64,000 nt of DNA from Candidatus Methanoperedenaceae archaeon. Lineage in GTDB: Archaea > Halobacteriota > Methanosarcinia > Methanosarcinales > Methanoperedenaceae. Below are positions 1,730 through 54,198 of this stretch, piece by piece. Where the stretch lies: the NCBI GenBank assembly GCA_963753595.1, contig CAVWCX010000001.1:128001-192000 (forward strand), in the 5' to 3' direction. Position numbers and translations under genes: made by a program. The notes under the pieces were generated by a model. That model worked only from the letters and a program-made list of their open reading frames with translations. It did not search any database and was not told the origin of the DNA. Each line of letters opens with the position of its first letter. Within the stretch, counting starts at the first letter, position 1.

Positions 1730-1966
1730 ATGAAAGTCATAAGGATAGACGATCTTGATAAGATCAGGTTTGATAATATCAAAGCAGAATTTAAAACATG
1801 CTTATCAAAAGAAGCTCAATGTAATGTAGCAGAGATAAGTACGCTAAAGGATTCATCATTCTTGAATCTGTTACTGGAAGTCTGGAAAAATACTGCTCAT
1901 GAAGAAATAGTTGAAAAACTTTCAGACTCAAAAATGTTCAACAATTATAGAAATGGAAAAAAATGA
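1730..1966 (+). CDS. Small hypothetical protein
   Basis: 78 aa; TTTATATA box upstream (~1692); stop overlaps the next start. Confidence 0.55.
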   Translation: MKVIRIDDLDKIRFDNIKAEFKTCLSKEAQCNVAEISTLKDSSFLNLLLEVWKNTAHEEIVEKLSDSKMFNNYRNGKK

Positions 1967-2535
1967 ATAAAAACATTAAATTCTTATTTATTATCTTTTT
2001 AATTTTATTCAGTATCGAGCTTGCGAAGGCAGGAGAAATGGATTGGCATAAACCTACCCCATGTTTTGGGTGTCATTTAGAAACCATAAAAGCGGATTAT
2101 GGTAGTCAGGAATGTGGTAATTGCCATGATTATAAGTATAATGTTCCTCTTCTGGAATCTGATCATAATCCAAAGATTTGTACAGCTTGCCATTTTGGGA
2201 ATACCATGGTCAATGCAAGTATGAAAGAGATCTTCCATAATGGGCACAATAATATAGAATGCACAAGATGCCATACAGAGGATAACTTTACAGTAATAAA
2301 GATCAAAAACAATGGATTTGTTTGTGTGTCCTGTCACAGCAATAAAGTACATTCCATCCATGTCAATAAAATCGATAAAATATGCAAAATATGTCATGGT
2401 TCGTGGGCAAATGGAAAAGTATATAATACCAATTCTCCATCATCAAATACGTCTAAAGAATCCGCTCAGTTAGAAAAATTCACAATATTCTATTTCATAA
2501 AATCTTTATTTAATACTATATTTGGAGTGAAATAA
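1963..2535 (+). CDS. Small hexaheme c-type cytochrome
   Basis: Signal peptide; 6 CxxCH in ~115 aa; hydrophobic/amphipathic C-terminus FTIFYFIKSLFNTIF. Confidence 0.9.
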   Translation: MNKNIKFLFIIFLILFSIELAKAGEMDWHKPTPCFGCHLETIKADYGSQECGNCHDYKYNVPLLESDHNPKICTACHFGNTMVNASMKEIFHNGHNNIECTRCHTEDNFTVIKIKNNGFVCVSCHSNKVHSIHVNKIDKICKICHGSWANGKVYNTNSPSSNTSKESAQLEKFTIFYFIKSLFNTIFGVK

Positions 2536-2985
2536 ATGGATAAAAAAAACATAACATATGTAATTATTGCATTGCTGGTTTTATCAATCGCTGGTTACTA
2601 TCTTTATCAGCATGCAACAGATATGGGTCTGGCAAAACCCGCGCTAGTATTGAAAATTTCAACAAATCTGTCCGAAAAAGGAGCTCTACAAATTAATAAT
2701 GTCACATTTGTGCAGTCAAGTGTTCCCGTTTTTTATAAGCGGGCAGACACGATACCCTCTTTTCCGGAAATAGAAGTTAACGCTCGTTTGAATGCGTTAG
2801 ATTCTGCCCCTGCGAGTTTTTGGGCATCAACACCTTATAAAGATGAAGGGCTTTATGATGTAAAGATATATTTCAGGGATGGCAAAGAACCAAAGAAAGG
2901 AGATATCCTTATTTTGCCGATAAGGATCATTGGCAGTACAGCTGTTGTAATGTATAAAACCACAGCTTTTTATGAGTGGGAGTGA
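2536..2985 (+). CDS. N-terminally membrane-anchored hypothetical protein
   Basis: N-terminal TM helix, beta-rich domain, translationally coupled to its neighbours. Confidence 0.75.
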   Translation: MDKKNITYVIIALLVLSIAGYYLYQHATDMGLAKPALVLKISTNLSEKGALQINNVTFVQSSVPVFYKRADTIPSFPEIEVNARLNALDSAPASFWASTPYKDEGLYDVKIYFRDGKEPKKGDILILPIRIIGSTAVVMYKTTAFYEWE

Positions 2986-3946
2986 TATGAAATTGGTGTG
3001 GGTATTTCTGGTATTAGCAGGGATTTCAATATGGCTTATCCCCAATACCCTATCCCTTTTTAGCGGCGGGCATAGCTTCTATAATATTGACCCTGTCGGC
3101 TCCCAGGTTCCATGCAGTAAATGCCATGGTGATATAGACATGCAAATACATACTGGTTTTATACATAACAACTTCACGTGTTCCGATTGCCATCGTGTCC
3201 AAAAAGGTGTTCAATTCGCAAGCGGCGACAATGCTTATGAAAGGTTGATTTATATAAATGTAACAGGACCATCGAGTGTAAGGAACAGGGTTCTTGCGAC
3301 CACGATCCAGAACTACCAGAGAGGAAATTTTCCAAAATCAATCTCAGGCGAGATCACGATCGACCAATGGGCAGCCTCTGGCAACGATGAAGCGCAATTC
3401 CGTGATGAAAACGGACTATATATGGGAAATATGACCCCAGGGGAAGCTGGCATAATATATAATTATGAAAAAGAGAATGAGATTTCAACATATATCAACG
3501 GTGTCTCAAAAGACACAGACCCAACCACCTCGAATTCGGCTCTTGCTACCAGAAAAATCAATGTGAATCCATATCCATCCGGTTCTGATAATCTCACAGG
3601 CGCAGGATCAAAAGTAATAACTTCAGGTACACTGGCCCACGCATCTTCCACTGTCCTGTGTGCAGAATGCCATTCAGAGTACATTAACAATACGCCGGAT
3701 ACCATACATGAAGCTTTCATCAGGTACGGTATGGAACATAATACCAATGACAATTGTATCGCATGCCATACTTCAACCGCAGTGTCGATAAACTGGACGC
3801 GTCCGAGCACCATAGCTTTTGAAACCAGTTCTGATGGCAACAATATTACAATTAATAAAAACTTCCAGGCGAATCCAGTAAAAATAGAGACCTTTGGAAC
3901 CCAATCCGGTGATGTTTTTGCAATCTCCAATGTTACGATAGATTGA
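2972..3946 (+). CDS. Tetraheme cytochrome, paralog of ORF 271 (ECN-like minor subunit candidate)
   Basis: IPNTLSLFSGGHSFYNID..QVPCSKCHGD, ASGDNA and GAGSK motifs shared with ORF 271; 4 CxxCH. Start likely ATG 2987. Confidence 0.85.
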   Translation: MSGSDMKLVWVFLVLAGISIWLIPNTLSLFSGGHSFYNIDPVGSQVPCSKCHGDIDMQIHTGFIHNNFTCSDCHRVQKGVQFASGDNAYERLIYINVTGPSSVRNRVLATTIQNYQRGNFPKSISGEITIDQWAASGNDEAQFRDENGLYMGNMTPGEAGIIYNYEKENEISTYINGVSKDTDPTTSNSALATRKINVNPYPSGSDNLTGAGSKVITSGTLAHASSTVLCAECHSEYINNTPDTIHEAFIRYGMEHNTNDNCIACHTSTAVSINWTRPSTIAFETSSDGNNITINKNFQANPVKIETFGTQSGDVFAISNVTID

Positions 3947-4044
3947 GATAATTTATCATTATAATCATTATAAACATTATTATATACATGGAAACAAATA
4001 TAAACTATTTAAACATAACAGACCAATTATCAATCTGAGACTAT

Positions 4045-5520
4045 ATGAGACGTGTAATTATTCCCGTTTTGATTCTACTGCTTTTTTCACCGTTAGTATC
4101 AGCCCAGGGTGAATTCCTTTTTGATCTTGCAACCAAAGGCCAAAGTGACGGCACTTATGTAAAGCACTGGTCTGCTGCATACCCTCCTGACCCGAAGGCA
4201 GATATAATCGTTTATTCAGAAGCTAAGAACATGGCATATAAACGATTGTCTGCCCTGGGTTTTGTTTATGCGGTCTATGATCCTATGGAAAATATCGTGG
4301 CGGTAGAAAAAATAAGTTCCTTCAAAAGAAGTTATGATCCTAATATCGTTTATTATACCCTGCATCCTAAAACCGATTGGATAGAAGGGAACTACAAGAT
4401 CAAGATCGTTGTATTCGATATGGTTGATCGTGAGGCATATGATGAAAATGTTTCAAGTGACCCATTTGCCATCGGCATTAATCCGGAGATGTATAAGATA
4501 TTTTACGATACTGGTGCAAATGCAAAAGATCTGGGTGTCCTTCGTGATCTTGGCGACCCGGTGGCACGGGCGGTATTGAATTTTAAGATAGACAAACAAG
4601 TTTCTATATATCCTCCTGACCGGCTTCTCCTTCATGATGTCAGGTTCGTTGATGATAGCACTGACCGCATATTAGGAGAGAAACTCCTGATCGAAGTCAA
4701 GATGGATAATAATTATAAAGATGATGGTCAGATCAAGCTTGCTATGCTGGTGGATAATAGTCTTGTATCTACAAAAGACGTTATGGTAAAAGGGCTAAGT
4801 AATTCCACAGTCATCTTTGAAGCTAAAGCAGGAAAACTGGGAACTTTCAAATTACATTTCGGAGCTGACACAAATGATGTGAAATACAGGAATGCGGAAT
4901 TGACGTTCACCATTAAGAATGAGACCGAATCCACCAGGCTTGAACTTCCAAAAATAACAATAACAGGAATGAATGTTAATAAAGAGTTTGCCGGAGTAGG
5001 TGAGAATGTGATCGTATCGGTGAACCTGATAAATAATGGTAAGACCGGGAACAAGACCATAACTGTTTATTCTAACAGGGAACCGATCGGTTCGTCTGAA
5101 GTCCAGTTGCCATATCTTGAAGAAAAGTCTATTGAAATACCCGTAACTTTGAAAAATACAGGGATTAACAAAATAACAGTATCTGACGCCCCTGCACTTT
5201 TCAGGAACGTATTTGTAGGGGATGCCGAAGCTTCGGCAACAGGACAAAGTACTATCCTTACTAAAGTGAAGGAAAACAGTTTAAAAGTATCTATGGTGTT
5301 TGTGTTCATTGTGTTTGCTGGAATGCTGTTCTATGTGAGAAATAAGTTAAAAGAAGAAAATCCTGTTAATGCCACATCAATGGGAATTCCAGATAAGCCC
5401 GAAGAAAATAAGATATCTGATCTTAAAATCAAACTTGCCAATAATGTTGATAAATTCAGAAGTAAGATAAAATTCAGCAGTAAGATAAAAGAAATCTTTA
5501 AGAAAAAACCACGCGGCTGA
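4045..5520 (+). CDS. Secreted protein with Ig/CARDB-like domains and a C-terminal TM anchor
   Basis: Signal peptide, two beta-sandwich-like segments (e.g. VIVSVNLINNGKTG), TM helix and Lys-rich tail. Confidence 0.7.
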   Translation: MRRVIIPVLILLLFSPLVSAQGEFLFDLATKGQSDGTYVKHWSAAYPPDPKADIIVYSEAKNMAYKRLSALGFVYAVYDPMENIVAVEKISSFKRSYDPNIVYYTLHPKTDWIEGNYKIKIVVFDMVDREAYDENVSSDPFAIGINPEMYKIFYDTGANAKDLGVLRDLGDPVARAVLNFKIDKQVSIYPPDRLLLHDVRFVDDSTDRILGEKLLIEVKMDNNYKDDGQIKLAMLVDNSLVSTKDVMVKGLSNSTVIFEAKAGKLGTFKLHFGADTNDVKYRNAELTFTIKNETESTRLELPKITITGMNVNKEFAGVGENVIVSVNLINNGKTGNKTITVYSNREPIGSSEVQLPYLEEKSIEIPVTLKNTGINKITVSDAPALFRNVFVGDAEASATGQSTILTKVKENSLKVSMVFVFIVFAGMLFYVRNKLKEENPVNATSMGIPDKPEENKISDLKIKLANNVDKFRSKIKFSSKIKEIFKKKPRG

Positions 5521-5525
5521 TTTAA

Positions 5526-6212
5526 ATGAAAGAAGTAGAATACACAGTACCGTTGCTTGTTTCGGGGATTCTTACATTGGTACTTTTAGGCTTTTACCTT
5601 TATAAATCTGAAAATTCTGTTTTTATGCGTCTTATTTCTTCATATTATATGAAAAACAGATACAGCAAAGCTATAATTCAAAAAGATACACGGGGAGAAG
5701 ATATTGTATTGTTAATTATCTTAATAATTCTTATATCTGGATTTGGTTTTAAACTTATTGGATTTGTAGCGGTCATATCGGATTCTATGAAGCCTGAATT
5801 CCAAAGAGGTGATCTTGTAATGATACAATCGATATCTAAAGATCCTCAAATTGGAGATATAATAACATTTAAGGCAGCCAATGTTCCAACCCCTGTGACT
5901 CACAGGGTCACCGGTGTTCAAAGTAATATTGTGGCTACCAAAGGGGATAATAATCCTCTTCCTGATGATTATGGAACAACAAAAAATGATGTTATTTCAA
6001 AAACTGTTGTTATAGGAGGCCATCCTGTCGTACTAAAAGGTCTTGGATCTCTTTTCATTCTGGATTTTTCTAAAGAAGGTAAACTAAGCAGATTCGGCGA
6101 CCAGTATGAATTCTTCCAGAATCTCTTCATGACTATAAGAACATGGGGCTATGTCATAACAATAATTGCTTTTTGTGCTTTAATATTGTCTATGTTTGGG
6201 AATAAAAGATGA
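5526..6212 (+). CDS. Signal peptidase I, S26B (archaeal SEC11/SipW-type)
   Basis: VISDSMKP (catalytic Ser), GDLV, GDIITF, VTHRV (His), TKGDNN..PD; TM helices at both ends. Confidence 0.9.
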   Translation: MKEVEYTVPLLVSGILTLVLLGFYLYKSENSVFMRLISSYYMKNRYSKAIIQKDTRGEDIVLLIILIILISGFGFKLIGFVAVISDSMKPEFQRGDLVMIQSISKDPQIGDIITFKAANVPTPVTHRVTGVQSNIVATKGDNNPLPDDYGTTKNDVISKTVVIGGHPVVLKGLGSLFILDFSKEGKLSRFGDQYEFFQNLFMTIRTWGYVITIIAFCALILSMFGNKR

Positions 6213-7093
6213 ATAAAAACATATATATAATAATTATTTTTGTAGTCATTGTGACCACTTTGATTCAAACTTTTTCTTTTGTCAGCAGCGATCATCAGAT
6301 CAATCCTCCAGTACAGGACAAATGCATACAATGCCATGGAGATGTAAATACGCAATTATCCAAATCAACCCAACATTCTTCGTTCTCCTGTATAAGCTGC
6401 CATCCCAAATCAGTAATAAACCATACTAATAAGCAACCGGAATGTGAATACTGTCATGATACGCTTCAAATGAGCGATACATTTGAAGCACATTCTGATT
6501 TTGTATCTTTAAGGTCAGAAGGGTGTATAGCCTGTCATACGAACTATAATGTCATTATAAATTATTCCAGACCTGAATTCATATCATATACAATTACAAA
6601 TAATTCAGGAAATTGGGTCATCTCCAATTTCGCAACCAGTGGCATGTTGAACTTATCTTACAACGCTCTTAAGCAAGGGGGGAACCATAATATAAAAAAT
6701 GTATCCTGCAAAGACTGCCATAAAGATATTTTCGATGCAGTTTCTATGAGAGGTCATGCAGTAATTTCCGGAAAAGAAGAAAACCAGGCGCCTTATCATA
6801 ATACCAGCAACTCGACAAGCAACGAAGAATGGTGTCTTACCTGCCATAGCCCGAAAGATAATAAATTCCCAAATCAGCAGCATTCAGCACGCAGAACGAC
6901 TTGCGAAGAATGCCATGAAGCATATAATTTATCCGCCCATCCAGGAAATATCTATACCAATATCAAAACTGTTCCTCGTTTATACCGAAGCCTGGTGTGC
7001 ATATCATGTAAATCTGTAGGGTGGCAGGTACCTAACACTACATTGAAGTTCAAAGTACATCAAGAGCCATATTTCGATGTAACGATGTCGTGA
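6209..7093 (+). CDS. Secreted octaheme cytochrome (7 CxxCH + 1 CxxCK)
   Basis: CIQCH, CISCH, CEYCH, CIACH, CKDCH, CLTCH, CEECH, CISCK; N-terminus related to ORF 271. Confidence 0.9.
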   Translation: MNKNIYIIIIFVVIVTTLIQTFSFVSSDHQINPPVQDKCIQCHGDVNTQLSKSTQHSSFSCISCHPKSVINHTNKQPECEYCHDTLQMSDTFEAHSDFVSLRSEGCIACHTNYNVIINYSRPEFISYTITNNSGNWVISNFATSGMLNLSYNALKQGGNHNIKNVSCKDCHKDIFDAVSMRGHAVISGKEENQAPYHNTSNSTSNEEWCLTCHSPKDNKFPNQQHSARRTTCEECHEAYNLSAHPGNIYTNIKTVPRLYRSLVCISCKSVGWQVPNTTLKFKVHQEPYFDVTMS

Positions 7094-7146
7094 TCAAATG
7101 TTCAACTTCATACCCCCTCGATAATATCCTTAGTATTTAAGAAAAA

Positions 7147-10100
7147 ATGAATAAGAATTTATATCTGATAGCAGTTTTGGTTTTAGCAATAACCACTATT
7201 AGTCAGACTGTTTCTTTCATTGTTGGCGACCATCAATTTTATCAGTCAGTCCAGGATAAATGCATAAAATGTCATGGAGATATCAAGGCACAGCTCTCAA
7301 CATCAGATCAGCATTCAAATTTCTCCTGTGTTAGCTGCCATGTCAGATCTGCAACTAACCATACTAATAAACAACCAGACTGTAGTTACTGCCATGCTAC
7401 ATCGCGTATGAACGATACCTTAGAAGCCCACCCGGATTTTTCACCTATGGGTTCCGAGGGATGCGTAGCCTGCCATTCAACTTATAACGCTATTTTAAAC
7501 TATTCCCGGCCAGAGTATATCGACTATACAATTAAAAATAATAATGGAAACTGGATAGTCTCTGATTTCAAAACTGTAGGAACATTAAATCTATCATATA
7601 ATGCTATGAGACGGGGGGGAGGCATAATATAAAAAATGTTTCATGTAAAGATTGCCATAAAGATATTTTTGATGCTGTTTCATTAGGAGGTCATGCCGTA
7701 GTTCTTGCCAAAAATGGAACTCAAGTGGCCTACCACAATAATTCAAACTCCACCCCTGAAGAATGGTGCAGGACATGTCATAACAATAACGATGCCAAGT
7801 TCCAGACCCAACAACATTCAGTACGAAAAACAACTTGCGACCAATGCCATGAAGTCTATAATAATTCAACAACACATCCGGGTGATTTTTTTTCGAATAT
7901 AAAGACTGTGCCTCGTTTGTACCAAAGCCTTGTGTGCATATCATGTAAATCCGCGGGCTGGCCAGCACCTGGTGGCGCAATAATATTCAATGTTCGTGAA
8001 GAACCTTATTATGACGTTTCATTCCAGATAATTTCACCTTTGAATATAACCGATTCTTCACCTGCAAGCGACCCAACCACACCCGCAGGTGTATCTCAAA
8101 TGTTTTCTGCAACACTCAACAGGTTTGCAGATATCACCTGGTATAATGAGGGGTCTGAGGTTTTCATGGTTTTGGATGTGATCTCGGCAAGTTATACAGA
8201 TTCTAAAAGAATTCCCGGGGTTTATAATATAACAGCAGTTGCCAGTGACAGTTATAATTCAGCAACCAGATCATGGACCTGGAATGTCACTAACGGCACT
8301 GGAGGCGGAATTGGAGGCGGCGGTGGAAGCAGCGGCAGTGGTGGCAGCGGAGGAGGTATAGGAAGTGGTACTTCTAACAATATAAGTGGATATGTATTCG
8401 ATAATTTTGGTTCACCACTATCAGGCGTACTTGTTCAAAATGGGAGCTATCAGAATATTACCCTGGAGTCAGGCTTTTATTCGATAACAAATATTTCCAA
8501 TGGAGAATACAACTTCACATATTCTAAAGCCGGATTTGAACCTGATTATTTTATATTTACACTTGGCGGCATTACTATGGTAAATATGAATAAGACTCTT
8601 TATGACATAACACCCCCGAATTCAGTTTCCGATCCGAATTCAACAACCGGCAACTTCTTCATAAACAATACATGGATCAATCCATCAGATATTGATTTCA
8701 AGAGCACGTCGTTCAGATATACTAATGGAAGTACACTGCAGAGCTTAAACAACTCCACTAATTATCTAAATCTCACTTTTTCACCACATTATGTCCAGAA
8801 TATTTCGGCTCAGACGGTAGATAATTTCGGGAACACGAACGAGACACTGGTATGGTTCAATGTTACTATACCAAATAACGTTCCAATACAGTCACAGATT
8901 GGAAATATAACCGGTAATGAAGGGCAATTTCTGGATCTCGCAGTATTAGCAACGGATGCTGATAATGATACCATAACTTATGGAACCAGCGCATCAAAAG
9001 GAACTTTAAATACAACTACCGGGCAATTCTTCTGGACACCGGATTATGGGGATGCAGGAACTTATGCCTGGAATTTCAATTCCGCTGATGGTTATGGTGG
9101 TGTGGTAAGTGAAAATATTACTGTGGCCATTAACAATATCCCGCTCACAATCACAAATTCATCTCCAGTTGGTGATCCCAGCACAACAGCAGGAACACCA
9201 CAAATGTTTGAAGTAACTCTCAATCGAACTGCAGATATAATCTGGTATAATAATGGGTCAGAGGTATTCAGAGCCTCAGGAGTATTATCTGCAAATTATA
9301 TTAAATCAACAGCAGGTATTGGGGTATATGATATAACTGTTAATACGAATGACGGACACGATTCAGTTTCACGGAATTGGAGCTGGAATGTTACGAATGG
9401 AAGCGTGGGAAGTGGCGGTGTAGATGGCGGGGGGGGCAGCGGTGGAAGCAGCAATAGCATAAGTGGATATGTATTCGATAATTTTGGTTCACCATTATCT
9501 GGCGTGCTGGTTGCGAATGGCAGTTATCAGAGTATTACATCTCCTTCTGGTTACTATTCAATAACTAATTTATCTAATGGAACCTATAATTTCAGCTATT
9601 ATAAAGCAGGATTTATTACCGATTATTTTGAATTTTCATTTAACGGCGCAGTTATCATAAATGCGAACAAAACACTATATGATGATACGCCGCCTGGCCA
9701 GATATCTAATCTGAATATAACAACAGGTAACTTCTATATCAATAATTCATGGATTAATCCACAAGATGCTGATTTCAGCTACACCTTGTTCAGTTATATC
9801 AATGAAACCACACTTCAAAATGTAAGTAAACCTGTTAACTACCTGAACCTCACCTGGTCGCCACACTACACTCAGAATATAAGCTCACAGACTGTGGACA
9901 TATATAGTAATATCAATCAGGCAAAGGTGTGGTTCAACGCTACCATACCCAATAATGTTCCGGTACAATCGCAGATTGGAGATAAGGTAGTTTATGAAAA
10001 TGAATCTTTGCAGTTAAATGTCACAGCTACGGATTCAGATTCTGATTTAATCACTTATGGAACAAATGCAACAAAAGGAAGCTTTAATACTTCAACTGGT

Positions 10101-13100
10101 AATTTCTCATGGACTCCCGGCTTTGGAGATGCAGGAACTTATGCCTGGTTCTTTAACTCAAGTGATGGTTACGGTGGAGTTGCAGTCGAGAACATAACAA
10201 TATCTGTTAACGATACGCCATTATCGATTATCTCCTTCTCCCCGTTGACAGACCCGGCAACAGAGCAGGGTTTGACACAAAACTTCAGCATGAATATGAA
10301 CAGAACAGCCAACGTGACATGGTACATGGATGGTACCCCGGTTCAGACAGATATTAGTGTCATTTTGGCGAACTACACCAATTCCACGGCTGGCATAGGT
10401 ACATACAATATTACTGCAACAGCCAGCGATATTTATGATACTGCTACAACATCCTGGAACTGGACCGTAACTGCCCAATCCATGTATAATGTCAGCGGTT
10501 ATGTGTTTGACAACTATGGCTCAGGATTGGAAGGAGTTCTTGTGCAGAATGGAAGCAACCAGAATACAACGATAGCCTCCGGGTACTACTTGATAAGTAG
10601 TCTGGTAAACAGCACCTACAACTTCAGCTACTCTAAGGACGGATTCAACACTGGCTATCTGGAAGTTACGATCAATGGTTCGTATAATACAAGTGCCAAC
10701 AATACAATATATGACACGATACCGCCCTCTTCGATATCCAGCACAATTATAACAACCGGCAATTTCTACCTGAATAACACATGGATTAATCCAGCAGAAC
10801 CTGATTTCAATTATTCCTGGTTCAGGTACAGCAACAATACCACACTGACCAATGTCAGTAAGAATGCCAGTTATCTGAATCTCACCTGGCCGCCGCACTA
10901 CTCCCAGAACCTCAGCGTCCAGACAGTTGATGTTTATGGTAACACTAACCAAACGAAAGTCTGGTTCAATGCCACTATTCCCAATAATGCACCTGTTCAG
11001 TCACAGATCGGAAATAAGACCTTCGATGAAGGGCAATGGTTGAACTTCACAGTTAACGCCACCGACCTGGATAATGATGTATTGGTTTATGGCACCAACG
11101 CAACGAACGGTACGTTCAATACCACGACAGGTAACTTCTCATGGCAGACAACCTTTGCAGATTCAGGAATCTATGTGTGGAACTTCAACTCAAGCGACGA
11201 TTACGGTGGAGTTGCCGTCGAGACTATAACAATAACTGTGAACAATACCCCGCTTTCCTTCACTTCATTCTCCCCACTGACCGATCCGACAACGGAACTG
11301 GGCTTGTCACAAAACTTCAACGTAACACTGAACAGAACAGCCAACGTGACATGGTACATGGATGGTATCCCTATCCAGACCAATACAAGTATCACCTTTG
11401 CCAACTACACCAATTCCACAGCTGGCATAGGAACATACAATGTTACTGCGACGGCCAGCGATATTTATGATACTGCTACAACATCCTGGAACTGGACCGT
11501 AACCGCCCAATCCATGTATAATGTCGATGGCTATGTGTTTGACAACTATGGCTCAGGATTGGGAGGAGTTCTGGTACAGAACGGGAGCAATCAGAATACA
11601 ACGATAGCCTCAGGGTACTACCTGATAAGTAGTCTGGCAAACGGTACTTACAACTTCAGCTACTCCAGGACCGGATTCAACACAGACTACCTGGAAGTTA
11701 CAATAAACGGTGCAGATAATACAAGCTCGAATAAGACATTATATGATACCACTCTACCAGCCTCTGTATCTGATTCTATTATGTTGACCGGCAACTTCTA
11801 TGTAAACAATACATGGATTAATCCACAGGATGCAGACTTCAATCATACATGGTTCAGGTACAGCAACGATAACACACTTACGAATGTCAGTAATACATCC
11901 AGCGACCTCAACATCACCTGGCCGCCGCACTACACCCAGAACCTCAGTGCCCAGACTATTGATGTTTATGGTAACACAAACCAGACGAAAGTCTGGTTCA
12001 ACACCACTATACCCAATAACGCTCCAGTCCAGGCAGCGATTGGTAACAAAACACTAACATCAGGCCAGCTTTTAACCTTCATTGTTTCAGCTACCGATGC
12101 GGATAATGACACAATTACCTTCGGCATGAATGCAACGAATGGCAGCCTGAACACCACAACCGGAAATTATTTCTGGCAGACCAATAGCACTGACGTTGGA
12201 ACTTATGTCTGGAACTTCAATAGCAGCGATAATTATGGCGGAGTTGCGAATGAAACCATCACCATTACCGTAACTGAAATCCCGACATATCTACCTCCAT
12301 CTCCTGTTAACCTCATCGCGACCCAGGGCAACTTCTGGATAAACCATAGCTGGGAAGCAGGATTGGGTAATGACACGAACAGCTACAACGTAAGCGTGAA
12401 CGATATCTGGACGAACGGAACGACAGCTACTTTCAACAACACCACAGTTCCAGCCCATGGGTGGAGTAACATTTCAGTCTATGCCTACAATTCCTCAGGC
12501 ACAGGAACACTGAACACGACCCCTGTATCCAATAACACCCAGCTTTCCAATAATTTAGTGACTATCGGGAATATCTCTTCCAGTTATACAGTCACATCCG
12601 GTGACACGATTTCGATTTATCCGACCTCAAGCGACCTGGACGGTGACGTTCCAACATTTGCCCGGAACTTCAGTAACGGAACATTCTCCCCCAATAATGG
12701 AACTCTGGTCTGGACGACAGCAAGCATCGATATCGGCCTCCATTCCCTGCAAATCAACGTCACCGACGGTTATGGTTCCGTATCCTCCTCGAATTTCACA
12801 ATAACCGTGACCGCCCCAATACCCTTTAATTACACTCCTCCATCCCCTGTCAACCTCATCGTGACCCAGGGCAACTTCTGGATAAACCACAGCTGGGAAG
12901 CAGGATTGGGCAATGACACGAACAGCTACAACGTAAGCGTTAACGACCTCTGGACAAACGGAAGTACGAACACTTACAATAACAGTACAGTTCCAGCCCA
13001 TGGCTGGAGCAACATTTCAGTCTATGCCTACAATTCCTCAGGCACAGGAACCCTGAACACTACCCCGATCACCAATAACACCCAGCTTTCCAATAATTTA

Positions 13101-16100
13101 GTGACTATCGGCAATATCTCTTCCAGTTATACAGTCACAGCTGGAGACATAATCTCGATATATCCGACCTCAAGCGATCTGGACAATGACGTTCCAACAT
13201 TTGCCCGGAACTTCAGTAATGGTACATTCTACCCTGATAATGGAACCCTGATCTGGACGACAGCGAGCATCGATACAGGCCTCCATTCCCTTCAAATCAA
13301 CGTCACCGACGGTTATGGTTCCGTATCCTCCTCGAATTTCACAATAACCGTGACCACCCCAATACCCTTTAATTACACTCCTCCATCCCCTGTTAACCTC
13401 ATCGCGACCCAGGGCAACTTCTGGATAAACCACAGCTGGGAAGCAGGATTGGGCAATGACACGAACAGTTACAACGTAAGCGTTAATGACCTCTGGACAA
13501 ACGGAAGTACGAACACTTACAACAACACCACAGTTCCAGCCCATGGGTGGAGCAACATTTCAGTCTATGCCTACAATTCCTCCGGTTCAGGAACACTGAA
13601 CACGACCCCTGTATCCAATAACACCCAGCTTTCCAATAATTTAGTGACTATCGGGAATATCTCTTCCAGCTATACAGTCACAGCCGGTGACACGATCTCG
13701 ATCTATCCGACATCTCTCGACCTGGACGGAGACATTCCAACATTTGCCCGGAACTTCAGTAACGGAACATTCTCCCCCAATAATGGAACTCTGGTCTGGA
13801 CGACAGCAAGCATCGATATCGGCCTCCATTCCCTGCAAATCAACGTCACCGACGGGTTTGGTTCCGAATCCTCAACGAATTTCACAATAACCGTGACCGC
13901 CCCAATACCCTTTAATTACACTCCTCCATCTCCTGTTAACCTCATCTCGACCCAGGGCAACTTCTGGATAAACCATAGCTGGGAAGCAGGATTGGGTAAT
14001 GACACGAACAGCTACAACGTAAGCGTTAACGACCTCTGGACAAACGGAAGTACGAACACTTACAATAACAGTACAGTTCCAGCCCATGGCTGGAGCAACA
14101 TTTCAGTCTATGCCTACAATTCCTCAGGCACAGGAACCCTGAACACTACCCCGATCACCAATAACACCCAGCTTTCCAATAATTTAGTGACTATCGGCAA
14201 TATCTCTTCCAGTTATACAGTCACAGCTGGAGACATAATCTCGATATATCCGACCTCAAGCGACCTGGACGGTGACGTTCCAACATTTGCCCGGAACTTC
14301 AGTAACGGTACATTCTCCCCCAATAATGGAACCCTCTTCTGGACAACTGAAAGCATCGATACAGGCCTCCATTCCCTTCAAATCAACGTCACCGACGGGT
14401 TTGGTTCCGTATCCTCCTCGAATTTCACAATAACCGTGACCACCCCAATACCCTTTAATTACACTCCTCCATCTCCTGTTAGCCTTTCAACCACGCAGGG
14501 CAACTTCTGGATAAACCACAGCTGGGAAGTAGGATTGGGCAATGACACGAACAGCTACAACGTAAGCGTTAATGACCTCTGGACAAACGGAAGTACGAAC
14601 ACTTACAATAACAGTACAGTTCCAGCCCATGGCTGGAGCAACATTTCAGTCTATGCCTACAATTCCTCAGGCACAGGAACCCTGAACACTACCCCTGTAT
14701 CCAATAACACCCAGCTTTCCAATAATTTAGTAACGATCGGCAATATCTCTTCCAGCTATACAGTCACAGCAGGTGACACTATCTCCATCTATCCGACCTC
14801 AAGCGACCTGGACAATGACCTTCCAACCTTTGCCCGGAACTACAGTAATGGTACATTCTACCCCGATAATGGAACCCTTGTCTGGACAACAGAAAGCATC
14901 GATACAGGCCTCCATTCCCTTCAAATCAACGTCACCGACGGGTTTGGTTCCGTATCCTCCTCGAATTTCACAATAACCGTAACCGCCTCATTACCCCTTA
15001 ATTACACGCCTCCATCTCCTGTTAGCCTTTCAACCACGCAGGGCAACTTCTGGATAAACCACAGCTGGGAAGCAGGATTGGGCAATGACACGAACAGCTA
15101 CAACGTAAGCGTTAACGGCAGCTGGACGAATGGAACGACAGCCACTTACAACAACACCACAGTTCCAGCCCATGGCTGGAGTAACATTTCGGTATATTCA
15201 TACAACAGTTCAGGTACAGGAACCCTGAACACGACCCCGATCACCAATAACACCCAGCTTTCCAATAATTTAGTAACGATCGGCAATATCTCTTCCAGTT
15301 ATACAGTCACAGCCGGCGACACGATCTCCATCTATCCGACATCCCTCGACCTGGACAATGACGTTCCAACCTTTGCCCGGAACTTCAGTAATGGTACATT
15401 CTACCCCGATAACGGAACCTTCATCTGGACAACAGACAGCATCGATACAGGCCTCCATTCCCTGCAAATCAACGTCACCGATGGCTATGGTTCCGTATCC
15501 TCCTCGAATTTCACAATAACCGTGACCACCACAATACCCCTGAATTACACTCCTCCATCCCCCGTTAACCTCATCGCGACCCAGGGCAACTTCTGGATAA
15601 ACCACAGCTGGGAAGCAGGATTGGGCAATGACACGAACAGCTACAACGTAAGCGTTAATGACCTCTGGACAAACGGAAGTACGAACACTTACAACAACAG
15701 TACAGTTCCAGCCCATGGCTGGAGCAACATTTCAGTCTATGCCTACAATTCCTCAGGCACAGGAACCCTGAACACGACCCCTGTATCCAATAACACCCAG
15801 CTTTCCAATAATTTAGTGACTATCGGCAATATCTCTTCCAGTTATACAGTCACAGCTGGAGACATAATCTCCATCTATCCGACCTCAAGCGACCTGGACG
15901 GTGACGTTCCAACCTTTGCCCGGAACTTCAGTAATGGTACATTCTACCCTGATAATGGAACCCTGATCTGGACGACAGCGAGCATCGATACAGGCCTCCA
16001 TTCCCTGCAAATCAACGTCACCGATGGCTATGGTTCCGTATCCTCCTCGAATTTCACAATAACCGTATCCGCCGCATTACCCCTGAATTACACGCCTCCA

Positions 16101-18656
16101 TCCCCTGTTAACCTCATCGCGACCCAGGGCAACTTCTGGATAAACCACAGCTGGGAAGCAGGATTGGGCAATGACACGAACAGCTACAACGTAAGCGTTA
16201 ATGACCTCTGGACAAACGGAAGTACGAACACTTACAATAACAGTACAGTTCCAGCCCATGGCTGGAGCAACATTTCAGTCTATGCCTACAATTCCTCAGG
16301 TACAGGAACACTGAACACGACCCCGGTTACCAATAACACCCAGCTTTCCAATAATTTAGTGACTATCGGGAATATCTCTTCCAGTTATACAGTCACAGCT
16401 GGAGACATAATCTCGATATATCCGACCTCAAGCGATCTGGACAATGACGTTCCAACATTTGCCCGGAACTTCAGTAATGGTACATTCTACCCTGATAATG
16501 GAACCCTGATCTGGACGACAGCGAGCATCGATACAGGCCTCCATTCCCTTCAAATCAACGTCATTGACGGATTTGGTTCCGTATCCTCCTCGAATTTCAC
16601 AATAACCGTGACCGCCCCAATACCCTTTAATTACACGCCTCCATCCCCTGTTAACCTCATCGCGACCCAGGGCAACTTCTGGATAAACCACAGCTGGGAA
16701 GCAGGATTGGGCAATGACACGAACAGCTACAACGTAAGCGTTAATGACCTCTGGACAAACGGAAGTACGAACACTTACAATAACAGTACAGTTCCAGCCC
16801 ATGGCTGGAGCAACATTTCAGTCTATGCCTACAATTCCTCAGGCACAGGAACCCTGAACACGACCCCTGTATCCAATAACACCCAGCTTTCCAATAATTT
16901 AGTGACTATCGGGAATATCTCTTCCAGTTATACAGTCACAGCAGGTGACACTATCTCCATCTATCCGACCTCAAGCGACCTGGACAATGACCTTCCAACC
17001 TTTGCCCGGAACTACAGTAATGGTACATTCTACCCTGATAATGGAACCCTTGTCTGGACGACAGCAAGCATCGATACAGGCCTCCATTCCCTGCAAATCA
17101 ACGTCATTGACGGATTTGGTTCCGTATCCTCCTCGAATTTCACAATAACCGTGACCGCCCCAATACCCCTTAATTACACGCCTCCATCCCCTGTTAACCT
17201 CATCGCGACCCAGGGCAACTTCTGGATAAACCACAGCTGGGAAGCAGGATTGGGTAATGACACGAACAGCTACAACGTAAGCGTTAACGACCTCTGGACG
17301 AACGGAAGTACAAACACTTACAATAACAGTACAGTTCCAGCCCATGGCTGGAGTAACATTTCGGTATATTCATACAACAGTTCAGGTACAGGAACCCTGA
17401 ACACGACCCCGATCACCAATAACACCCAGCTTTCCAATAATTTAGTAACGATCGGCAATATCTCTTCCAGTTATACAGTCACAGCCGGCGACACGATCTC
17501 CATCTATCCGACATCCCTCGACCTGGACAATGACGTTCCAACCTTTGCCCGGAACTTCAGTAATGGTACATTCTACCCTGATAATGGAACCCTTGTCTGG
17601 ACGACAGCAAGCATCGATATCGGCCTCCATTCCCTGCAAATCAACGTCACCGACGGCTATGGTTCAGTATCCTCATCAAATTTCACAATAACAGTCAAAT
17701 CATTGCCATCTTATAATGCAAGCGGCTATGTGTTCGATAATTTCGGCGCAGGATTGGAAGGTGTCCTGGTCCAGAATGGCAGCAACCAGAGTATAACATC
17801 AGCATCAGGATATTATTCCATAACAAATCTGCCAAATGGTACTTACAACTTCAGCTATTCAAAAGCTGGATTTAATACGGACTATTTAGATATCACAATC
17901 AGCGGTGCTAATAATACCACGGCGAATAAGACACTCTATGATACAACACCGCCAGCCAGTGTTTTCAATATTGCCAACACTTCAAATCCAATGTATATCA
18001 ACTGGACATGGTCAGATCCGTCAGACCCTGATCTTGATCATGTAGAAGTGTATATTGACGGCGCGTTCATGATCAATGTGTCCAGAGAAGTGCAATTCTA
18101 CAATGCAAGTTACTTTGCTCCTAATTCAACCCACATAATATCAACACGAACTTCTGATAATTTCAGTAATGTGAATACTACCTGGGTCAATAATACAGCA
18201 ACTACTCACTCCGAATATACCTATGTATCCAGTTTCATGAATGAAACGGGCATAGTATCAGGCTTTGACGATGCCCGGAATGCAAGTGATGGACTGGTTG
18301 CAATCTTTGCAGAGGTTAATGTGGGTGGATTGTACCAGCTCAATGTTACCACAAATACCACTGGAATACCTGACGCCAGCATCCACACATTGGAGCTGAG
18401 ATACAATGTTTCCGGAGACAACTTCACAATGCAGATATGGAACGGGTCATCATGGAACAACAGGTCAATTTTGAACGATACTTCAATGTCTTACATCAAC
18501 ATTACTATACTCCCCGAAGAATTGATTTCCGACGGAACACTGCCGGGTAATGCAGGAACTATTAATAAGTACTATTCACTTGTTCGTTATCTGGATTTGA
18601 ATGCAAGCGCGCAGAGCATGCTGTATCTTGACTATCAGAGGATTTACAATGTATAA
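7147..18656 (+). CDS. Giant (~3,836 aa) octaheme cytochrome-Ig/FN3/cadherin-repeat surface protein, split by a 1-nt frameshift at G7 (7613-7619)
   Basis: ORF 7147-7632 and ORF 7725-18656 are colinear with paralog 6209-7093; adding one G gives MRRGGRHNIKNVSCKDCH versus paralog LKQGGNHNIKNVSCKDCH. Confidence 0.85.
8030..12290 (+). repeat. Four ~344-400 aa super-repeats (Ig-like + carboxypeptidase-regulatory-like + FN3-like + cadherin-like)
   Basis: Recurring SGYVFDN(F/Y)GS, TGNFYxNNxWINP, IPNNxPxQ; units 3 and 4 are near-identical at a 1032-bp period; Gly/Ser linkers in units 1-2. Confidence 0.8.
12294..17695 (+). repeat. Ten near-identical 543-bp (181-aa) intragenic tandem repeats
   Basis: PPSPV..TQGNFWINHSWE starts at ~12294, 12837, 13380, 13923, 14466, 15009, 15552, 16095, 16638, 17181. 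Confidence 0.95.
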
Positions 18657-18811: not shown

Positions 18812-19693
18812 ATGAAAGATAAAATCGCAGTATTCAGTGCTATACTTCTGGGCGTAGTGGTGGGATTATTTGCAACGTTATCACTGATAATAGATGTTTT
18901 CTTTCTCGATAATATCTTAGGAACATTAATAGATCTTATCATAATGGTATTCTCTTACATGACGGCATGGATAGGGGTAAGGCACGTCCTGATGCAGAAA
19001 CTCGCGAATGATAAAATGGATAAGGAATGGGATTATAAAATTCAGCCACTCATGAATATGCTCACTGATACGGTTGGCAGGATCAATGCTATGGAAACCC
19101 AGGTAATGCAGACCAATCGCAGGGTGGACACCACTCTTGATTATGTAACTAAGATGCAGGATATGGATGCTTCAAAAGTATATATTTTCCCGGGCGCGTC
19201 TTTTAAATTCATAGCAAAAGTTCTTGTAGTGACAGTCTTTACATTCTCTTCATTAGTTTATGTGGCCGAATATCCGCTGGGTATTGTTCATTATTTCATT
19301 TTGATCATTTACCTGATATGGTGGGCATTATTCACTTCAGAATATAAACTTTTCAATAACAAGATGGCTTGGTTATGGGCGCTTGCTCCAATAATGACCG
19401 TTCCAGTCGGGGGAATTATCCTTGACGCAGCATGGGGACCAAATATCATGATGGGTATTTTGTTCGGTTTATTATTCTTCTATGTCTATTTTTATTATTC
19501 CTGGGCTGCCTATGTTACTGTAGGGTTCAAATTGTTAGACTTGAAAGGATTAAGGGATTATCTTATCAAGAATATGGACACGTATGTTGAAAAGGAGAAA
19601 ACTGAGCGCAAGATTAACAGGAAATGGATCGATGTGGCAATTCTTGCCAGTATAGTAATTGCGGGAGCAATTGCGGTATGGGTTTTTATTTAA
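18812..19693 (+). CDS. Multi-pass membrane protein with a coiled-coil loop, function unknown
   Basis: GAGGTGA SD; ~7 hydrophobic segments. Confidence 0.8.
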   Translation: MKDKIAVFSAILLGVVVGLFATLSLIIDVFFLDNILGTLIDLIIMVFSYMTAWIGVRHVLMQKLANDKMDKEWDYKIQPLMNMLTDTVGRINAMETQVMQTNRRVDTTLDYVTKMQDMDASKVYIFPGASFKFIAKVLVVTVFTFSSLVYVAEYPLGIVHYFILIIYLIWWALFTSEYKLFNNKMAWLWALAPIMTVPVGGIILDAAWGPNIMMGILFGLLFFYVYFYYSWAAYVTVGFKLLDLKGLRDYLIKNMDTYVEKEKTERKINRKWIDVAILASIVIAGAIAVWVFI

Positions 19694-27414: not shown

Positions 27415-27531
27415 TATTGAATGATAGGAATATATTGGAGCGAAATATTCTTTCGCTCTTTTTTTTTAATGTATTTTTATAAAAAAAATAATGAGATAGT
27501 TTTATCTATTAAAACGTTCATTTTATTTTTG

Positions 27532-47255: not shown

Positions 47256-47274
47256 TGATACGTAATTTATGTTT

Positions 47275-49526: not shown

Positions 49527-49529
49527 ATG

Positions 49530-49764
49530 TCTGAATCCCTGAGCCTTATGGCTTCCTTGTAACCGCGCTGGATAGTCCTACTAAGACACGGTTGACGATG
49601 TTGTCTATAACGGTTGCGCCGACTTTTTTGGCGACATCAGATGTGTCATCTGTGCTGCCGTCGCTGATCACGAGGATCTCATCTACGAAGCGGGCTGTGG
49701 CTTTGATCACATCTCCGATGGTTGATTCTTCGTTATAGGCTGGGATTATGGCTATGGTTTTCAT
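49530..49764 (-). pseudogene. Truncated, frameshifted duplicate of the GT2 5' end
   Basis: MKTIAIIPAYNEESTI...VIDNIVNR then, in a shifted frame, LSRTIQRGYKEAI, matching ORF 47275-48153. Confidence 0.85.
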
Positions 49765-50015
49765 TTTTATCTTTATTGAGTCAGGATATTATATAATACT
49801 TCATATGAACTTTTTGTGGTCTTGTTGTTAATCTCGCAGGAGGGTCTTGCCAAGAACCGACGTTGACGGTGTTGTTGATGGGAATTGAGTCAACATTCCT
49901 TGTTTCTTAGTGCTTTCTGTACTTCCAAAAATGCCGATATTTTTGGCAATGCAAAGAATGTTTCTTGATAAAGATATATAAGAAATAACGTACGTAAACA
50001 TTGCTTGTTCAATAT

Positions 50016-51908: not shown

Positions 51909-52033
51909 ACTTCAGACTGAAATACAGATTAAATAAAAATATTTAATATAATAATTTTAAAAGTCATATTATTCAGAAATACAAAAACAATATTCAAGGT
52001 ATAAGCAAATAAATCCCATAACAACCGGCGGCT

Positions 52034-54161: not shown

Positions 54162-54198
54162 TTTTCCAATGCATTTTTGACAAGGTTTAATTAAATCC

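What the first reader, a model, noticed from the sequence alone, without database searches (positions are those of the whole stretch)
7147..18656. Octaheme head fused to a ~3,500-aa heme-free Ig stalk with no C-terminal anchor
Seen: all 8 heme motifs lie in the first ~290 aa. They are followed by four super-repeats, ten 181-aa repeats and a unique C-terminal beta domain ending YLDYQRIYNV, with no TM or PGF tail. The gene looks like a duplicate of 6209-7093 that captured an adhesin. Inference: attachment is through the cytochrome head, and the non-conductive stalk (roughly 35-40 beta-sandwich domains, possibly over 100 nm) presents a distal adhesion domain or acts as a spacer or sheath.
Basis: partly seen in the sequence, partly recalled or inferred. 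Interest (0 to 1): 0.7.

Follow-up and report, generated by a model that had tools for sequence, protein, structure and literature searches.

The report
Octaheme-headed giant archaeal surface protein
A methane-oxidising archaeon carries, inside its cytochrome-nanowire gene cluster, a gene for a very long sugar-coated surface fibre with an eight-heme cytochrome at one end and a pilus-type end domain at the other; in this assembly one missing base breaks the gene.

Summary
It is 11,510 nt, and a 1-base deficit in a G7 run (7613-7619) splits the cytochrome head between hemes 4 and 5. Contigs of close relatives from two runs carry one more base and read through. All 8 other genus genomes with the fused gene have an unbroken head.

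The genome is a Candidatus Methanoperedens. The gene family is conserved: 7 full-length homologues of 2,744-3,805 aa. Each has a Sec-type N-terminus, an octaheme head (7 CXXCH plus one CXXC[K/H]), about 39 heme-free beta-sandwich domains and no C-terminal membrane anchor.

New points:
- The head is an internal duplication of a tetraheme module distantly related to the solved archaeal nanowire subunit AvECN.
- The gene sits in a conserved cluster with two clear AvECN homologues and a dedicated archaeal signal peptidase I, with which it shares a locus-specific N-terminal motif.
- The "unique" C-terminal domain is a recurrent module found at the far end of archaeal pilin-like surface proteins.

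Best reading: a cytochrome-anchored tether or adhesin of the nanowire apparatus. This function is inferred, not shown. It is a new variant of a known kind, of moderate to high interest.

The parts
271..1572 (+). ECN1: 433-aa, 5-CXXCH homologue of the solved archaeal cytochrome nanowire subunit AvECN (PDB 8e5g)
   Evidence: phmmer against PDB gives E=9.5e-25 to 8e5g_A. The identity of 8E5G as AvECN comes from PMC12954529. Carries the locus-specific N-terminal motif.
1963..2535 (+). 190-aa cytochrome with 6 CXXCH and a signal peptide
   Evidence: Pfam Cytochrom_c3_2 and C7. Motif count. Syntenic in 3 of 3 relatives examined.
2536..2985 (+). 149-aa protein with an N-terminal hydrophobic segment, no known family
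   Evidence: No Pfam or NCBIfam hit. Conserved in synteny.
2972..3946 (+). ECN2: 324-aa tetraheme AvECN homologue
   Evidence: E=6.1e-15 to 8e5g_A. hhalign of the head profile against its N-terminus gives 96.8% probability.
4045..5520 (+). 491-aa protein with a signal peptide and one C-terminal TM helix followed by a Lys-rich tail; candidate membrane-anchored partner
   Evidence: Hydropathy segments at 4-22 and 413-431. No family hit. Conserved in synteny at 59-89% identity.
5526..6212 (+). Dedicated archaeal-type signal peptidase I
   Evidence: TIGR02228 sigpep_I_arch scores 88.5 bits against a cut-off of 51.85. Pfam Peptidase_S26. Lies directly upstream of the octaheme genes in 3 of 3 relatives examined.
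6209..7093 (+). Head-only octaheme paralogue (294 aa; 7 CXXCH + CXXCK)
   Evidence: 55 homologues at E<=0.001; every organism named by a source is Methanoperedens or 'uncultured archaeon'.
7147..7632 (+). Head, first piece (frame 1): signal-type N-terminus, hemes 1-4, then a premature stop
   Evidence: 62% identical to residues 1-158 of the paralogue.
7613..7619 (+). G7 run where the frame is lost (1 base short of in-frame)
   Evidence: Related contigs in X1 (depth 28.9) and X2 (depth 3.6) have one extra base here. The orthologue in G011 has an in-frame G8 at the same Gly-Gly codons.
7602..8024 (+). Head, second piece (frame 3): hemes 5-8 (CKDCH, CRTCH, CDQCH, CISCK) up to ...EEPYYDVSF
   Evidence: 64% identical to residues 155-293 of the paralogue.
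8034..12266 (+). Four super-repeats, each Ig-like + CarboxypepD_reg + FN3-like + Big_9
   Evidence: Self-comparison, Pfam and motif positions.
12267..17696 (+). Ten tandem 181-aa (543-nt) repeats, each FN3-like + Big_9
   Evidence: Exact period of 181 aa. DNA identity 85.5-96.5%, longest exact in-register match 266 nt.
17697..18149 (+). Fifth CarboxypepD_reg domain and a last FN3-like domain
   Evidence: Pfam best stretch at residues 3374-3445. Motifs at 3374 and 3466.
18150..18656 (+). C-terminal module (conserved core is the last ~110 aa, ending LYLDYQRIYNV) plus the stop codon
   Evidence: 75 representative clusters. At the extreme C-terminus in 29 of 32 best hits. No Pfam or NCBIfam family. 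Two more copies in this genome.
18812..19693 (+). 293-aa protein with about 7 TM segments, conserved directly downstream
   Evidence: Hydropathy. 71-90% identical and syntenic in G026, G030 and G015.

Best explanation
This is a member of a conserved Candidatus Methanoperedens gene family encoding a giant secreted surface protein that is potentially heavily N-glycosylated.

Shown by sequence:
- A Sec-type signal sequence is followed by a ~270-aa octaheme c-type cytochrome.
- The cytochrome is an internal duplication of a tetraheme module distantly related to archaeal ECN nanowire subunits.
- About 39 heme-free, Cys-free beta-sandwich domains follow, then a C-terminal module that elsewhere caps archaeal pilin-like proteins.
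- The gene belongs to the conserved ECN cytochrome-nanowire cluster, which includes a dedicated signal peptidase I.

Inferred:
- After cleavage by that peptidase, the head is the end that docks into the cytochrome assembly at the cell surface or on the filament.
- The acidic stalk, rich in N-glycosylation sequons, is a non-conducting spacer of the order of 100 nm or more.
- The C-terminal module is the free, binding end.
- On this reading the protein is a cytochrome-anchored tether or adhesin that ties the electron-export apparatus to a mineral, a partner cell or the matrix.

In this assembly the gene is interrupted by a 1-base deficit in a G7 run. That is most likely an assembly or very recent strain-level slip, because the 3,684 codons downstream are still open.
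For: ORGANISM AND FAMILY
- mcrA is present in the genome. Every organism named for a head-only homologue is Methanoperedens or 'uncultured archaeon'.
- Seven full-length head-stalk homologues of 2,744-3,805 aa are 54-74% identical over the first 700 residues searched.
- The fused form is found in 8 of 40 other genus genomes. In all 8 the head is unbroken.

HEAD
- 8 heme motifs.
- 15 invariant His in 34 head-only sequences: 7 proximal and 8 distal. K268 is Lys in 33 of 34.
- The two halves align heme for heme (hhalign 90%, E=1.8e-6).
- The profile's best PDB hit is AvECN 8e5g (E=1.5e-4).

CLUSTER
- Two strong AvECN homologues lie upstream (E=9.5e-25 and 6.1e-15).
- An archaeal signal peptidase I scores above the curated cut-off.
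- Gene order is conserved in 3 of 3 relatives examined.
- The N-terminal motif T.S[LF]..G.H.FY occurs in only 5 proteins of the 2.9-Mb genome, all at this locus. It aligns with ECN2 and ECN1 at 97% probability.

POLARITY
- There is no TM or PGF beyond the N-terminus in the window protein or in 7 of 7 homologues.
- The C-terminal module lies at the extreme C-terminus in 29 of 32 hits at E<=1.4e-9.
- 10 of 22 such hits of at least 400 aa start with a class III, pilin-like signal. One has Pfam Pilin_N.

SURFACE CHARACTER
- 314 N-X-S/T sequons, 243 D+E against 65 K+R, and no Cys in the stalk.

FRAME
- X1 and X2 contigs carry +1 base at the run and bridge it.
- X1 and X3 contigs bridge the head/stalk junction.
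- An in-frame G8 occurs at the same site in G011.
Against: - No experiment or structure shows what the head or the C-terminal module binds.
- AlphaFold2 models of both were poor (mean pLDDT 53.6 and 54.2), so fold-level inference is missing.
- The similarity of the head to AvECN is weak (24 bits).
- The conserved His of the N-terminal motif is present in only 24 of 34 head-only proteins.
- Only 12 of 40 other genus genomes hold the head at all, so the system is accessory.
- One homologue (P0057, ANME2D_02833) lacks the C-terminal module.
- In this genome the gene as assembled cannot make the full protein without a frame slip.
- The signal peptide could stay uncleaved and act as a membrane anchor. 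That would change the docking step but not the polarity.
Confidence: 0.5

Rival explanations
1. OmcZ-style pro-protein. The stalk is a C-terminal extension that a protease removes, so that the octaheme head can polymerise into a nanowire. The stalk itself has no lasting function.
For: In Geobacter OmcZ and in Methanoperedens OmcZ2 an octaheme N-terminal part is freed from a non-heme C-terminal part before polymerisation (PMC13748539, sections 8 and 11). Here too eight hemes sit in a ~290-aa N-terminal part followed by beta-sandwich domains.
Against: - No subtilisin-type or other serine protease except signal peptidase I was found among the 30 window ORFs scanned with Pfam.
- A head-only paralogue is already encoded next door.
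- A ~3,500-aa pro-domain with a conserved terminal module shared with pilin-like proteins is hard to explain as waste.
- No OmcZ chain appears among the 25 PDB sequences the head profile reached at E<=10.
Confidence: 0.12
2. Secreted matrix or sheath scaffold. The protein is released, is not held by its head, and forms a glycoprotein mesh around cells or filaments. The heads act at most as scattered redox relays.
For: There is no anchor of any kind apart from a cleavable-looking signal. The protein is very large, acidic and sequon-rich. Repeat content differs among homologues. Glycosyltransferase and Wzt-type export genes lie in the same window.
Against: The locus-specific N-terminal motif shared with ECN subunits, the conserved position in the ECN cluster and the conserved terminal module argue for defined ends rather than a bulk matrix polymer.
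Confidence: 0.18
3. Inverted polarity. The C-terminal module binds the cell envelope and the octaheme head is held out at the far end, as a contact that touches nanowires, minerals or partner cells.
For: The C-terminal module is always terminal and well conserved, as sorting or wall-binding domains are. The head has all 16 axial ligands within itself, so it could work as a free-standing redox unit.
Against: In the pilin-like proteins that share the module, the anchor or assembly element is at the other (N-terminal) end. A heme-free, Cys-free stalk gives no electron path back to the cell. The head shares the ECN N-terminal motif.
Confidence: 0.1
4. State of the gene in this strain (independent of function). 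The frameshift is real, so the gene is a fresh pseudogene. Alternatively it is an 'off' state of a slip-prone poly-G switch, perhaps with leaky read-through by -1 slippage on G GGG GGA.
For: - The window sequence itself.
- Homopolymer sites in this assembly are not enriched for frame-break signatures (18 of 5,190 against 287 of 115,562 random sites), so the assembly is not generally indel-ridden.
- The same Gly-Gly site carries G8 in G011, an interrupted 8-base form in X1 and X2, and G6 in the paralogue.
- A -1 slip at this run would give the same residues as the X1 form (read from the sequence).
Against: - 3,684 codons downstream have not a single stop.
- Relatives at about 97% identity are in frame.
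- In X5, whose other contigs match the window with 0 differences, the contig over the run differs at 7613 and ends there with 3 unaligned letters. That fits an 8-base form, but I could not see the letters.
- The run is interrupted in most orthologues, so a conserved switch is unlikely.
Confidence: 0.3

Closest known systems
AvECN / PcECN archaeal extracellular cytochrome nanowire subunits (PDB 8E5G, 8E5F)
   Same: AvECN is the best PDB hit of the head profile (E=1.5e-4). The same N-terminal signal-plus-motif region is shared. The gene lies beside two clear AvECN homologues.
   Different: ECN subunits are free-standing tetrahemes of about 260 aa. Here two tetraheme modules are fused into an octaheme and carry a ~3,540-aa heme-free extension. 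Polymerisation is not shown.
OmcZ (Geobacter OmcZ; Methanoperedens OmcZ2, PMC13748539)
   Same: An octaheme N-terminal part of ~260-330 aa is followed by a non-heme C-terminal part. Archaeal forms are rich in N-glycosylation motifs.
   Different: No sequence match to OmcZ was reached. There is no adjacent serine protease. The C-terminal part is ~3,540 aa rather than ~30 kDa, and it ends in a conserved module. The eighth motif is CXXCK in the window protein, in 33 of 34 head-only proteins and in 4 of the 7 fused homologues.
Large ANME multiheme cytochromes with non-heme domains (MHC-A/B/C of Chadwick et al., PMC9012536)
   Same: Archaeal extracellular cytochromes fused to large non-heme surface domains.
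   Different: Those carry 20-80 hemes, an S-layer (DUF1608) domain and a C-terminal TM helix (types A and B), or a pectin-lyase domain (type C). This one has 8 hemes confined to the N-terminus, no S-layer domain and no C-terminal TM.
Archaeal type IV pilin-like surface proteins carrying the same C-terminal module
   Same: Same C-terminal module, Ig-like spacers, and an N-terminal assembly or anchor element at the opposite end.
   Different: Their N-terminus is a class III pilin signal and helix. Here it is a Sec-type signal and a cytochrome.
tapA-sipW-tasA type fibre operons with a dedicated signal peptidase (recalled from memory, not from a call)
   Same: A dedicated archaeal/ER-type signal peptidase I is encoded among genes for secreted fibre subunits that share a conserved N-terminus. 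The window peptidase also hits the SipW model weakly (42.6 bits, below its cut-off of 190).
   Different: Different fibre proteins, no cytochromes. The analogy is functional only.

Membership tests
ECN-type archaeal cytochrome nanowire subunit (AvECN/PcECN) | Significant sequence similarity to a solved ECN subunit | tested here: inconclusive
   Head profile against PDB: 8e5g_A is the top hit, but only at E=1.5e-4 and 24.2 bits, in two short stretches. The single sequence gave no such hit. Neighbours ECN1 and ECN2 pass clearly.
ECN-type archaeal cytochrome nanowire subunit (AvECN/PcECN) | Free-standing tetraheme subunit | tested here: not met
   Eight motifs. The halves align heme for heme as a tandem duplication. 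The protein is fused to a ~3,540-aa stalk.
ECN-type archaeal cytochrome nanowire subunit (AvECN/PcECN) | Polymerises into a heme-stacked filament | not testable with these tools
   Needs purification and cryo-EM, or a heme-aware complex prediction.
ECN-type archaeal cytochrome nanowire subunit (AvECN/PcECN) | Shared N-terminal signal/motif and cluster context | tested here: met
   hhalign gives 96.8% and 96.7% probability against ECN2 and ECN1. The motif is found only in 5 proteins, all at this locus. Synteny holds in 3 of 3 relatives examined.
OmcZ family | Sequence similarity to OmcZ | tested here: not met
   None of the 25 PDB sequences reached at E<=10 is named OmcZ. I did not verify separately that OmcZ entries are in the copy.
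OmcZ family | Adjacent OzpA-like serine protease for removal of the C-terminal part | tested here: not met
   0 of 30 window ORFs scanned has a subtilisin-type domain. The only peptidase is signal peptidase I.
ANME S-layer-fused large multiheme cytochromes (MHC-A/B) | S-layer (DUF1608) domain and C-terminal TM helix | tested here: not met
   No such Pfam hit in the 3,684-aa part at E<=1. Maximum KD19 is 1.19.
PGF-CTERM / archaeosortase substrates | C-terminal PGF motif followed by a TM helix | tested here: not met
   No PGF in the last 60 aa and no hydrophobic tail, in the window protein and in 7 of 7 homologues.
Archaeal type IV pilin-like proteins | Class III signal peptide / Pilin_N domain | tested here: not met
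   The N-terminus is MNKN + h-region + SQTVSF, with no pilin motif. Only the C-terminal module is shared.
Phase-variable contingency gene | Length variation of a coding homopolymer within one population | tested here: inconclusive
   G7 here, an 8-base interrupted form in related strains (X1, X2), G8 in another species. No raw reads of one strain were available.

The most novel reading that the evidence does not exclude
The octaheme head is a covalent 'double ECN subunit' that is processed by the cluster's own signal peptidase. It then co-assembles with, nucleates or caps ECN-type cytochrome nanowires. The protein would then be the first minor-subunit or tip adhesin of a cytochrome nanowire, the cytochrome counterpart of a pilus tip adhesin. 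It would mechanically tie a conductive filament to a mineral, electrode or partner through a ~100-nm glycosylated leash ending in a pilus-type binding module.
Probability: 0.2. Interest if true: 0.85.

Novelty: new variant of a known kind. Interest (0 to 1): 0.6.

Why it matters
How cytochrome nanowires are anchored, nucleated and attached to their targets is an open question in both bacteria and archaea. The 2026 structure paper on Methanoperedens OmcZ2 filaments leaves a second, thicker filament unidentified, one that coincided with the organism's ECN homologue (passages read).

This gene is conserved in the ECN cluster and joins an ECN-like double module to a very long non-conducting stalk and a pilus-type end domain. 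That makes it a concrete, testable candidate for a link between the conductive apparatus and the outside world. It also defines three things not previously described in the papers I could search:
- a locus-specific N-terminal motif with its own signal peptidase;
- a tandem-tetraheme octaheme family with a CXXCK/CXXCH switch at heme 8;
- an uncharacterised C-terminal module shared with archaeal pilin-like proteins.

Tried and rejected
- **AlphaFold2, head-only paralogue:** with 34 sequences, mean pLDDT was 53.6. The model was too poor to search with.
- **AlphaFold2, C-terminal 168 aa:** with 23 sequences, mean pLDDT was 54.2. Foldseek against PDB gave no match at E<=0.001 (best 1.3), so no fold assignment.
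- **Complex prediction, two copies of the head-only protein:** no verdict. This is not evidence either way.
- **ESM Atlas, C-terminal module:** only unnamed clusters at scores of 0.90-0.92, with recognition below the mark. No use.
- **Tandem Repeats Finder:** found nothing, because its longest period is 500 and the repeat is 543 nt. Two self-BLAST attempts returned only the self-hit. A chunked self-comparison worked.
- **The look-up of sequencing runs:** no RNA holder listed, so nothing on expression.
- **Names:** the searches with the C-terminal module returned no informative name, only 'hypothetical' or 'Uncharacterised protein' labels.
- **The search of earlier findings:** nothing returned.
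- **Baquero et al. 2023 (Cell):** not held. What I say about ECN beyond the PDB hits and the passages in PMC12954529 and PMC13748539 is recollection.
- **Literature on this fusion:** searches for the locus tag ANME2D_02833, for Methanoperedens with 'carboxypeptidase regulatory', with 'adhesin' and 'multiheme', with 'octaheme', and with 'ECN' and 'gene cluster' found no description of it. Supplementary tables of PMC13748539 (proteomics) were not requested and may bear on whether the protein is made.
- **Programmed frameshifting as a conserved mechanism:** considered and set aside, because the 8 other genus genomes with the fused gene need no shift.

Full report
**1. What is in the sequence**

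The stretch 7147-18656 is 11,510 nt, which is not a multiple of three. ORF listing and three-frame translation show two pieces:
- A 161-aa ORF, 7147-7632, in frame 1. It has a hydrophobic N-terminus and four CXXCH motifs.
- A 3,684-codon open frame starting at 7602 in another frame. Its first listed start codon is the GTG at 7725, giving 3,643 aa. It has three CXXCH motifs and one CXXCK, all within its first 115 residues.

The neighbouring 294-aa gene 6209-7093 aligns with the first piece over residues 1-158 (62% identity). It aligns with the second piece over residues 155-293 (64% identity). The frame is therefore lost inside the Gly-Gly codons that form the G7 run 7613-7619. One more base there would give a single 3,836-codon gene.

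- Four super-repeats with periods of 368, 358 and 344 aa.
- Ten repeats at an exact 181-aa period, window 12267-17696, with 85.5-96.5% DNA identity.
- A terminal region ending YLDYQRIYNV.
- No hydrophobic segment after the N-terminus (maximum KD19 of 1.19) and no Cys after the head.
- 314 N-X-S/T sequons, and 243 acidic against 65 basic residues.

Pfam and motif counts give about 39 beta-sandwich domains: 4 Ig-like, 5 CarboxypepD_reg, 15 FN3-like, 14 Big_9 and the end module. A length above 100 nm is an inference from this domain number.

**2. Is the break real?**

Logan contigs from four runs of one study were laid on 6100-9000.
- Contigs of a strain about 97% identical, in X1 (depth 28.9) and X2 (depth 3.6), bridge the run. 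They carry one inserted base plus a G>A change, which restores the frame.
- X1 and X3 contigs also bridge the head/stalk junction, so head and stalk are contiguous in independent data.
- In X5, other contigs match the window with 0 differences. The contig over the run differs at 7613 and stops with three unaligned letters. That fits an 8-base form, but I could not see the letters.

Other evidence:
- All 8 other genus genomes that hold the fused form have a head match without stops.
- One orthologue (G011) has an in-frame G8 at exactly this site.
- The assembly is not generally prone to homopolymer frame breaks: 18 of 5,190 homopolymer sites against 287 of 115,562 random sites.
- The 3,684 downstream codons have no stop.

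I conclude that the intact fusion is the natural state of the gene. Whether this strain has an assembly error, a very recent slip or a phase-off state remains open.

**3. Organism and family**

The genome (2.89 Mb, 37 contigs) encodes mcrA. Every organism named by a source for a homologue of the head is Candidatus Methanoperedens or 'uncultured archaeon'.

A search restricted to long proteins found 19 hits. Seven are full-length head-stalk proteins of 2,744-3,805 aa. They include ANME2D_02833 of Ca. M. nitroreducens, annotated as hypothetical.
- All seven have only the N-terminal hydrophobic segment, no PGF motif and no Cys after residue 320.
- Six of the seven end in the same C-terminal module.
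- The mix of super-repeats and 181-type repeats differs between them.
- The eighth heme motif is CXXCH in three of them and CXXCK in four, as in the window. In head-only proteins it is CXXCK in 33 of 34.

A maximum-likelihood tree puts the seven fused heads in one clade (99/97 support). Under midpoint rooting that clade is nested among 34 head-only proteins. This fits a single capture of a stalk by a duplicate.

**4. What the head is**

- Thirty-four head-only sequences share 15 invariant His, which is 7 proximal and 8 distal. With K268 this is enough for eight six-coordinate hemes within one chain.
- The two halves align heme for heme (h1-h5, h2-h6, h3-h7, h4-h8; hhalign 90%, E=1.8e-6). The head is therefore a tandem duplication of a tetraheme module.
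- A profile of the family finds, as its best solved relative, chain 8e5g_A (E=1.5e-4). According to PMC12954529 this is AvECN, the Archaeoglobus veneficus extracellular cytochrome nanowire (passages read).
- No chain named OmcZ was reached.

**5. The surroundings change the picture**

The two cytochromes upstream are clear AvECN homologues:
- 271-1572: E=9.5e-25.
- 2972-3946: E=6.1e-15.

5526-6212 is an archaeal signal peptidase I (TIGR02228, 88.5 bits against a cut-off of 51.85).

The gene order is: ECN1, hexaheme, 149-aa protein, ECN2, 491-aa membrane-anchored protein, signal peptidase, (octaheme), octaheme-stalk, 7-TM protein. This order is kept in the 3 of 3 other species examined (G026, G030, G015). 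G026 lacks the head-only gene.

ECN1, ECN2, the octaheme and the giant protein share a signal sequence followed by the motif T.S[LF]..G.H.FY, which is also visible in AvECN. In the whole genome this motif occurs in five proteins only, all at this locus.

Known context, from passages read in PMC12246660 and PMC13748539:
- Methanoperedens has ECN homologues.
- An unidentified thicker filament coincided with ECN in electrode cultures.

I found no description of the octaheme-stalk protein.

**6. The far end**

The last ~110 aa form a module with no Pfam or NCBIfam family. A full HMMER scan of 1.84 billion representatives found 75 clusters.
- In 29 of the 32 best hits the module ends within 6 residues of the protein's end.
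- Of the 22 best hits of at least 400 aa, 10 begin with an archaeal class III (pilin-like) signal and 4 with an ordinary signal. The other 8 have no N-terminal hydrophobic segment and are probably truncated calls.
- One has Pfam Pilin_N.

This genome has two more such genes. One (C6) has a pilin-type N-terminus.

In its other contexts, then, the module sits at the end opposite to the element that anchors or assembles the protein.

**7. How it most likely works**

Shown:
- A secreted, sequon-rich protein (potentially N-glycosylated) with a redox head, an insulating stalk and a pilus-type end module.
- It is encoded in the ECN nanowire cluster together with its own signal peptidase.

Inferred:
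- The head, after signal cleavage, docks into the cytochrome assembly.
- The C-terminal module is the free binding end.
- The protein tethers the electron-export apparatus to a surface or to the matrix.

I put this at about 0.5. The rivals are:
- an OmcZ-like pro-protein, 0.12;
- a released matrix scaffold, 0.18;
- inverted polarity, 0.1.

The boldest reading not excluded is that the head is a double ECN subunit that co-assembles with, or caps, ECN filaments. That would make this a nanowire tip adhesin; I give it 0.2.

**8. Verdict**

The architecture is right, but the interval is not a single ORF, and the C-terminal domain is not unique.
- The system is a new variant of a known kind, namely archaeal extracellular cytochromes fused to surface domains. 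The nanowire context and the polarity were not previously noted, and both can be tested directly.

Noticed in passing
window 271-1572 and 2972-3946: Two clear homologues of the solved archaeal nanowire subunit AvECN (E=9.5e-25 and 6.1e-15 to 8e5g). One more ECN1 paralogue lies just upstream of the window, at G000:C1:~123883-125181 (L023:13883-15181).
   Followed up: partly
window 5526-6212; L023:3581-4306: A dedicated archaeal signal peptidase I sits inside the cytochrome cluster. A second S26 peptidase lies in a paralogous module upstream: 530-aa DUF11-like protein, two small cytochromes, a 143-aa protein, the peptidase, a 521-aa cytochrome with 38% identity to the second half of the head, and a 336-aa protein.
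   Followed up: partly
window 6998-7012 (residues 264-268 of the 294-aa paralogue) and 7935-7949 (giant gene): The eighth heme motif is CXXCK in 33 of 34 head-only proteins, but CXXCH in 3 of 7 fused homologues. This may be a Lys-ligated heme that switches with His.
   Followed up: partly
G000:C12:3124-6035 and G000:C6:~59553-61358 (L014-L016): Two further genes end in the same C-terminal module. The C6 gene has a pilin-type N-terminus. The C12 gene appears split into two frames (3124-3909 and 4023-6035).
   Followed up: partly
window 21865-27414, 27421-30297, 30580-32769, 34466-35842: Further multiheme cytochromes with 36, 17, 5 and 8 CXXCH motifs. Three end in a CarboxypepD_reg domain and one carries an InhA-like MAM domain. 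A DDE transposase (32877-34373) sits among them.
   Followed up: no
window 46341-60496 (minus strand): A glycan-synthesis and export block: GT2 glycosyltransferases, a WsaF-like transferase, a Wzt-type ABC ATPase and an LPG-synthase-like membrane protein. It could supply the glycans for the sequon-rich surface proteins nearby.
   Followed up: no
G000:C8:5580-5960 and G000:C34:1930-2310: Two mcrA matches with identical scores on different contigs, one of them a 9.3-kb contig. This is either a duplicated assembly piece or two copies.
   Followed up: no
L023:15429-17790 (G000:C1:125429-127790, minus strand): A PAS/HAMP histidine kinase and a response regulator with a DNA-binding domain lie between the two cytochrome modules. 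They are candidate regulators of the island.
   Followed up: no
window 36736-39528: A 930-aa protein with 8 Bact_surface_Ig-like and 3 HYR domains. It is another large surface protein in the same island.
   Followed up: no
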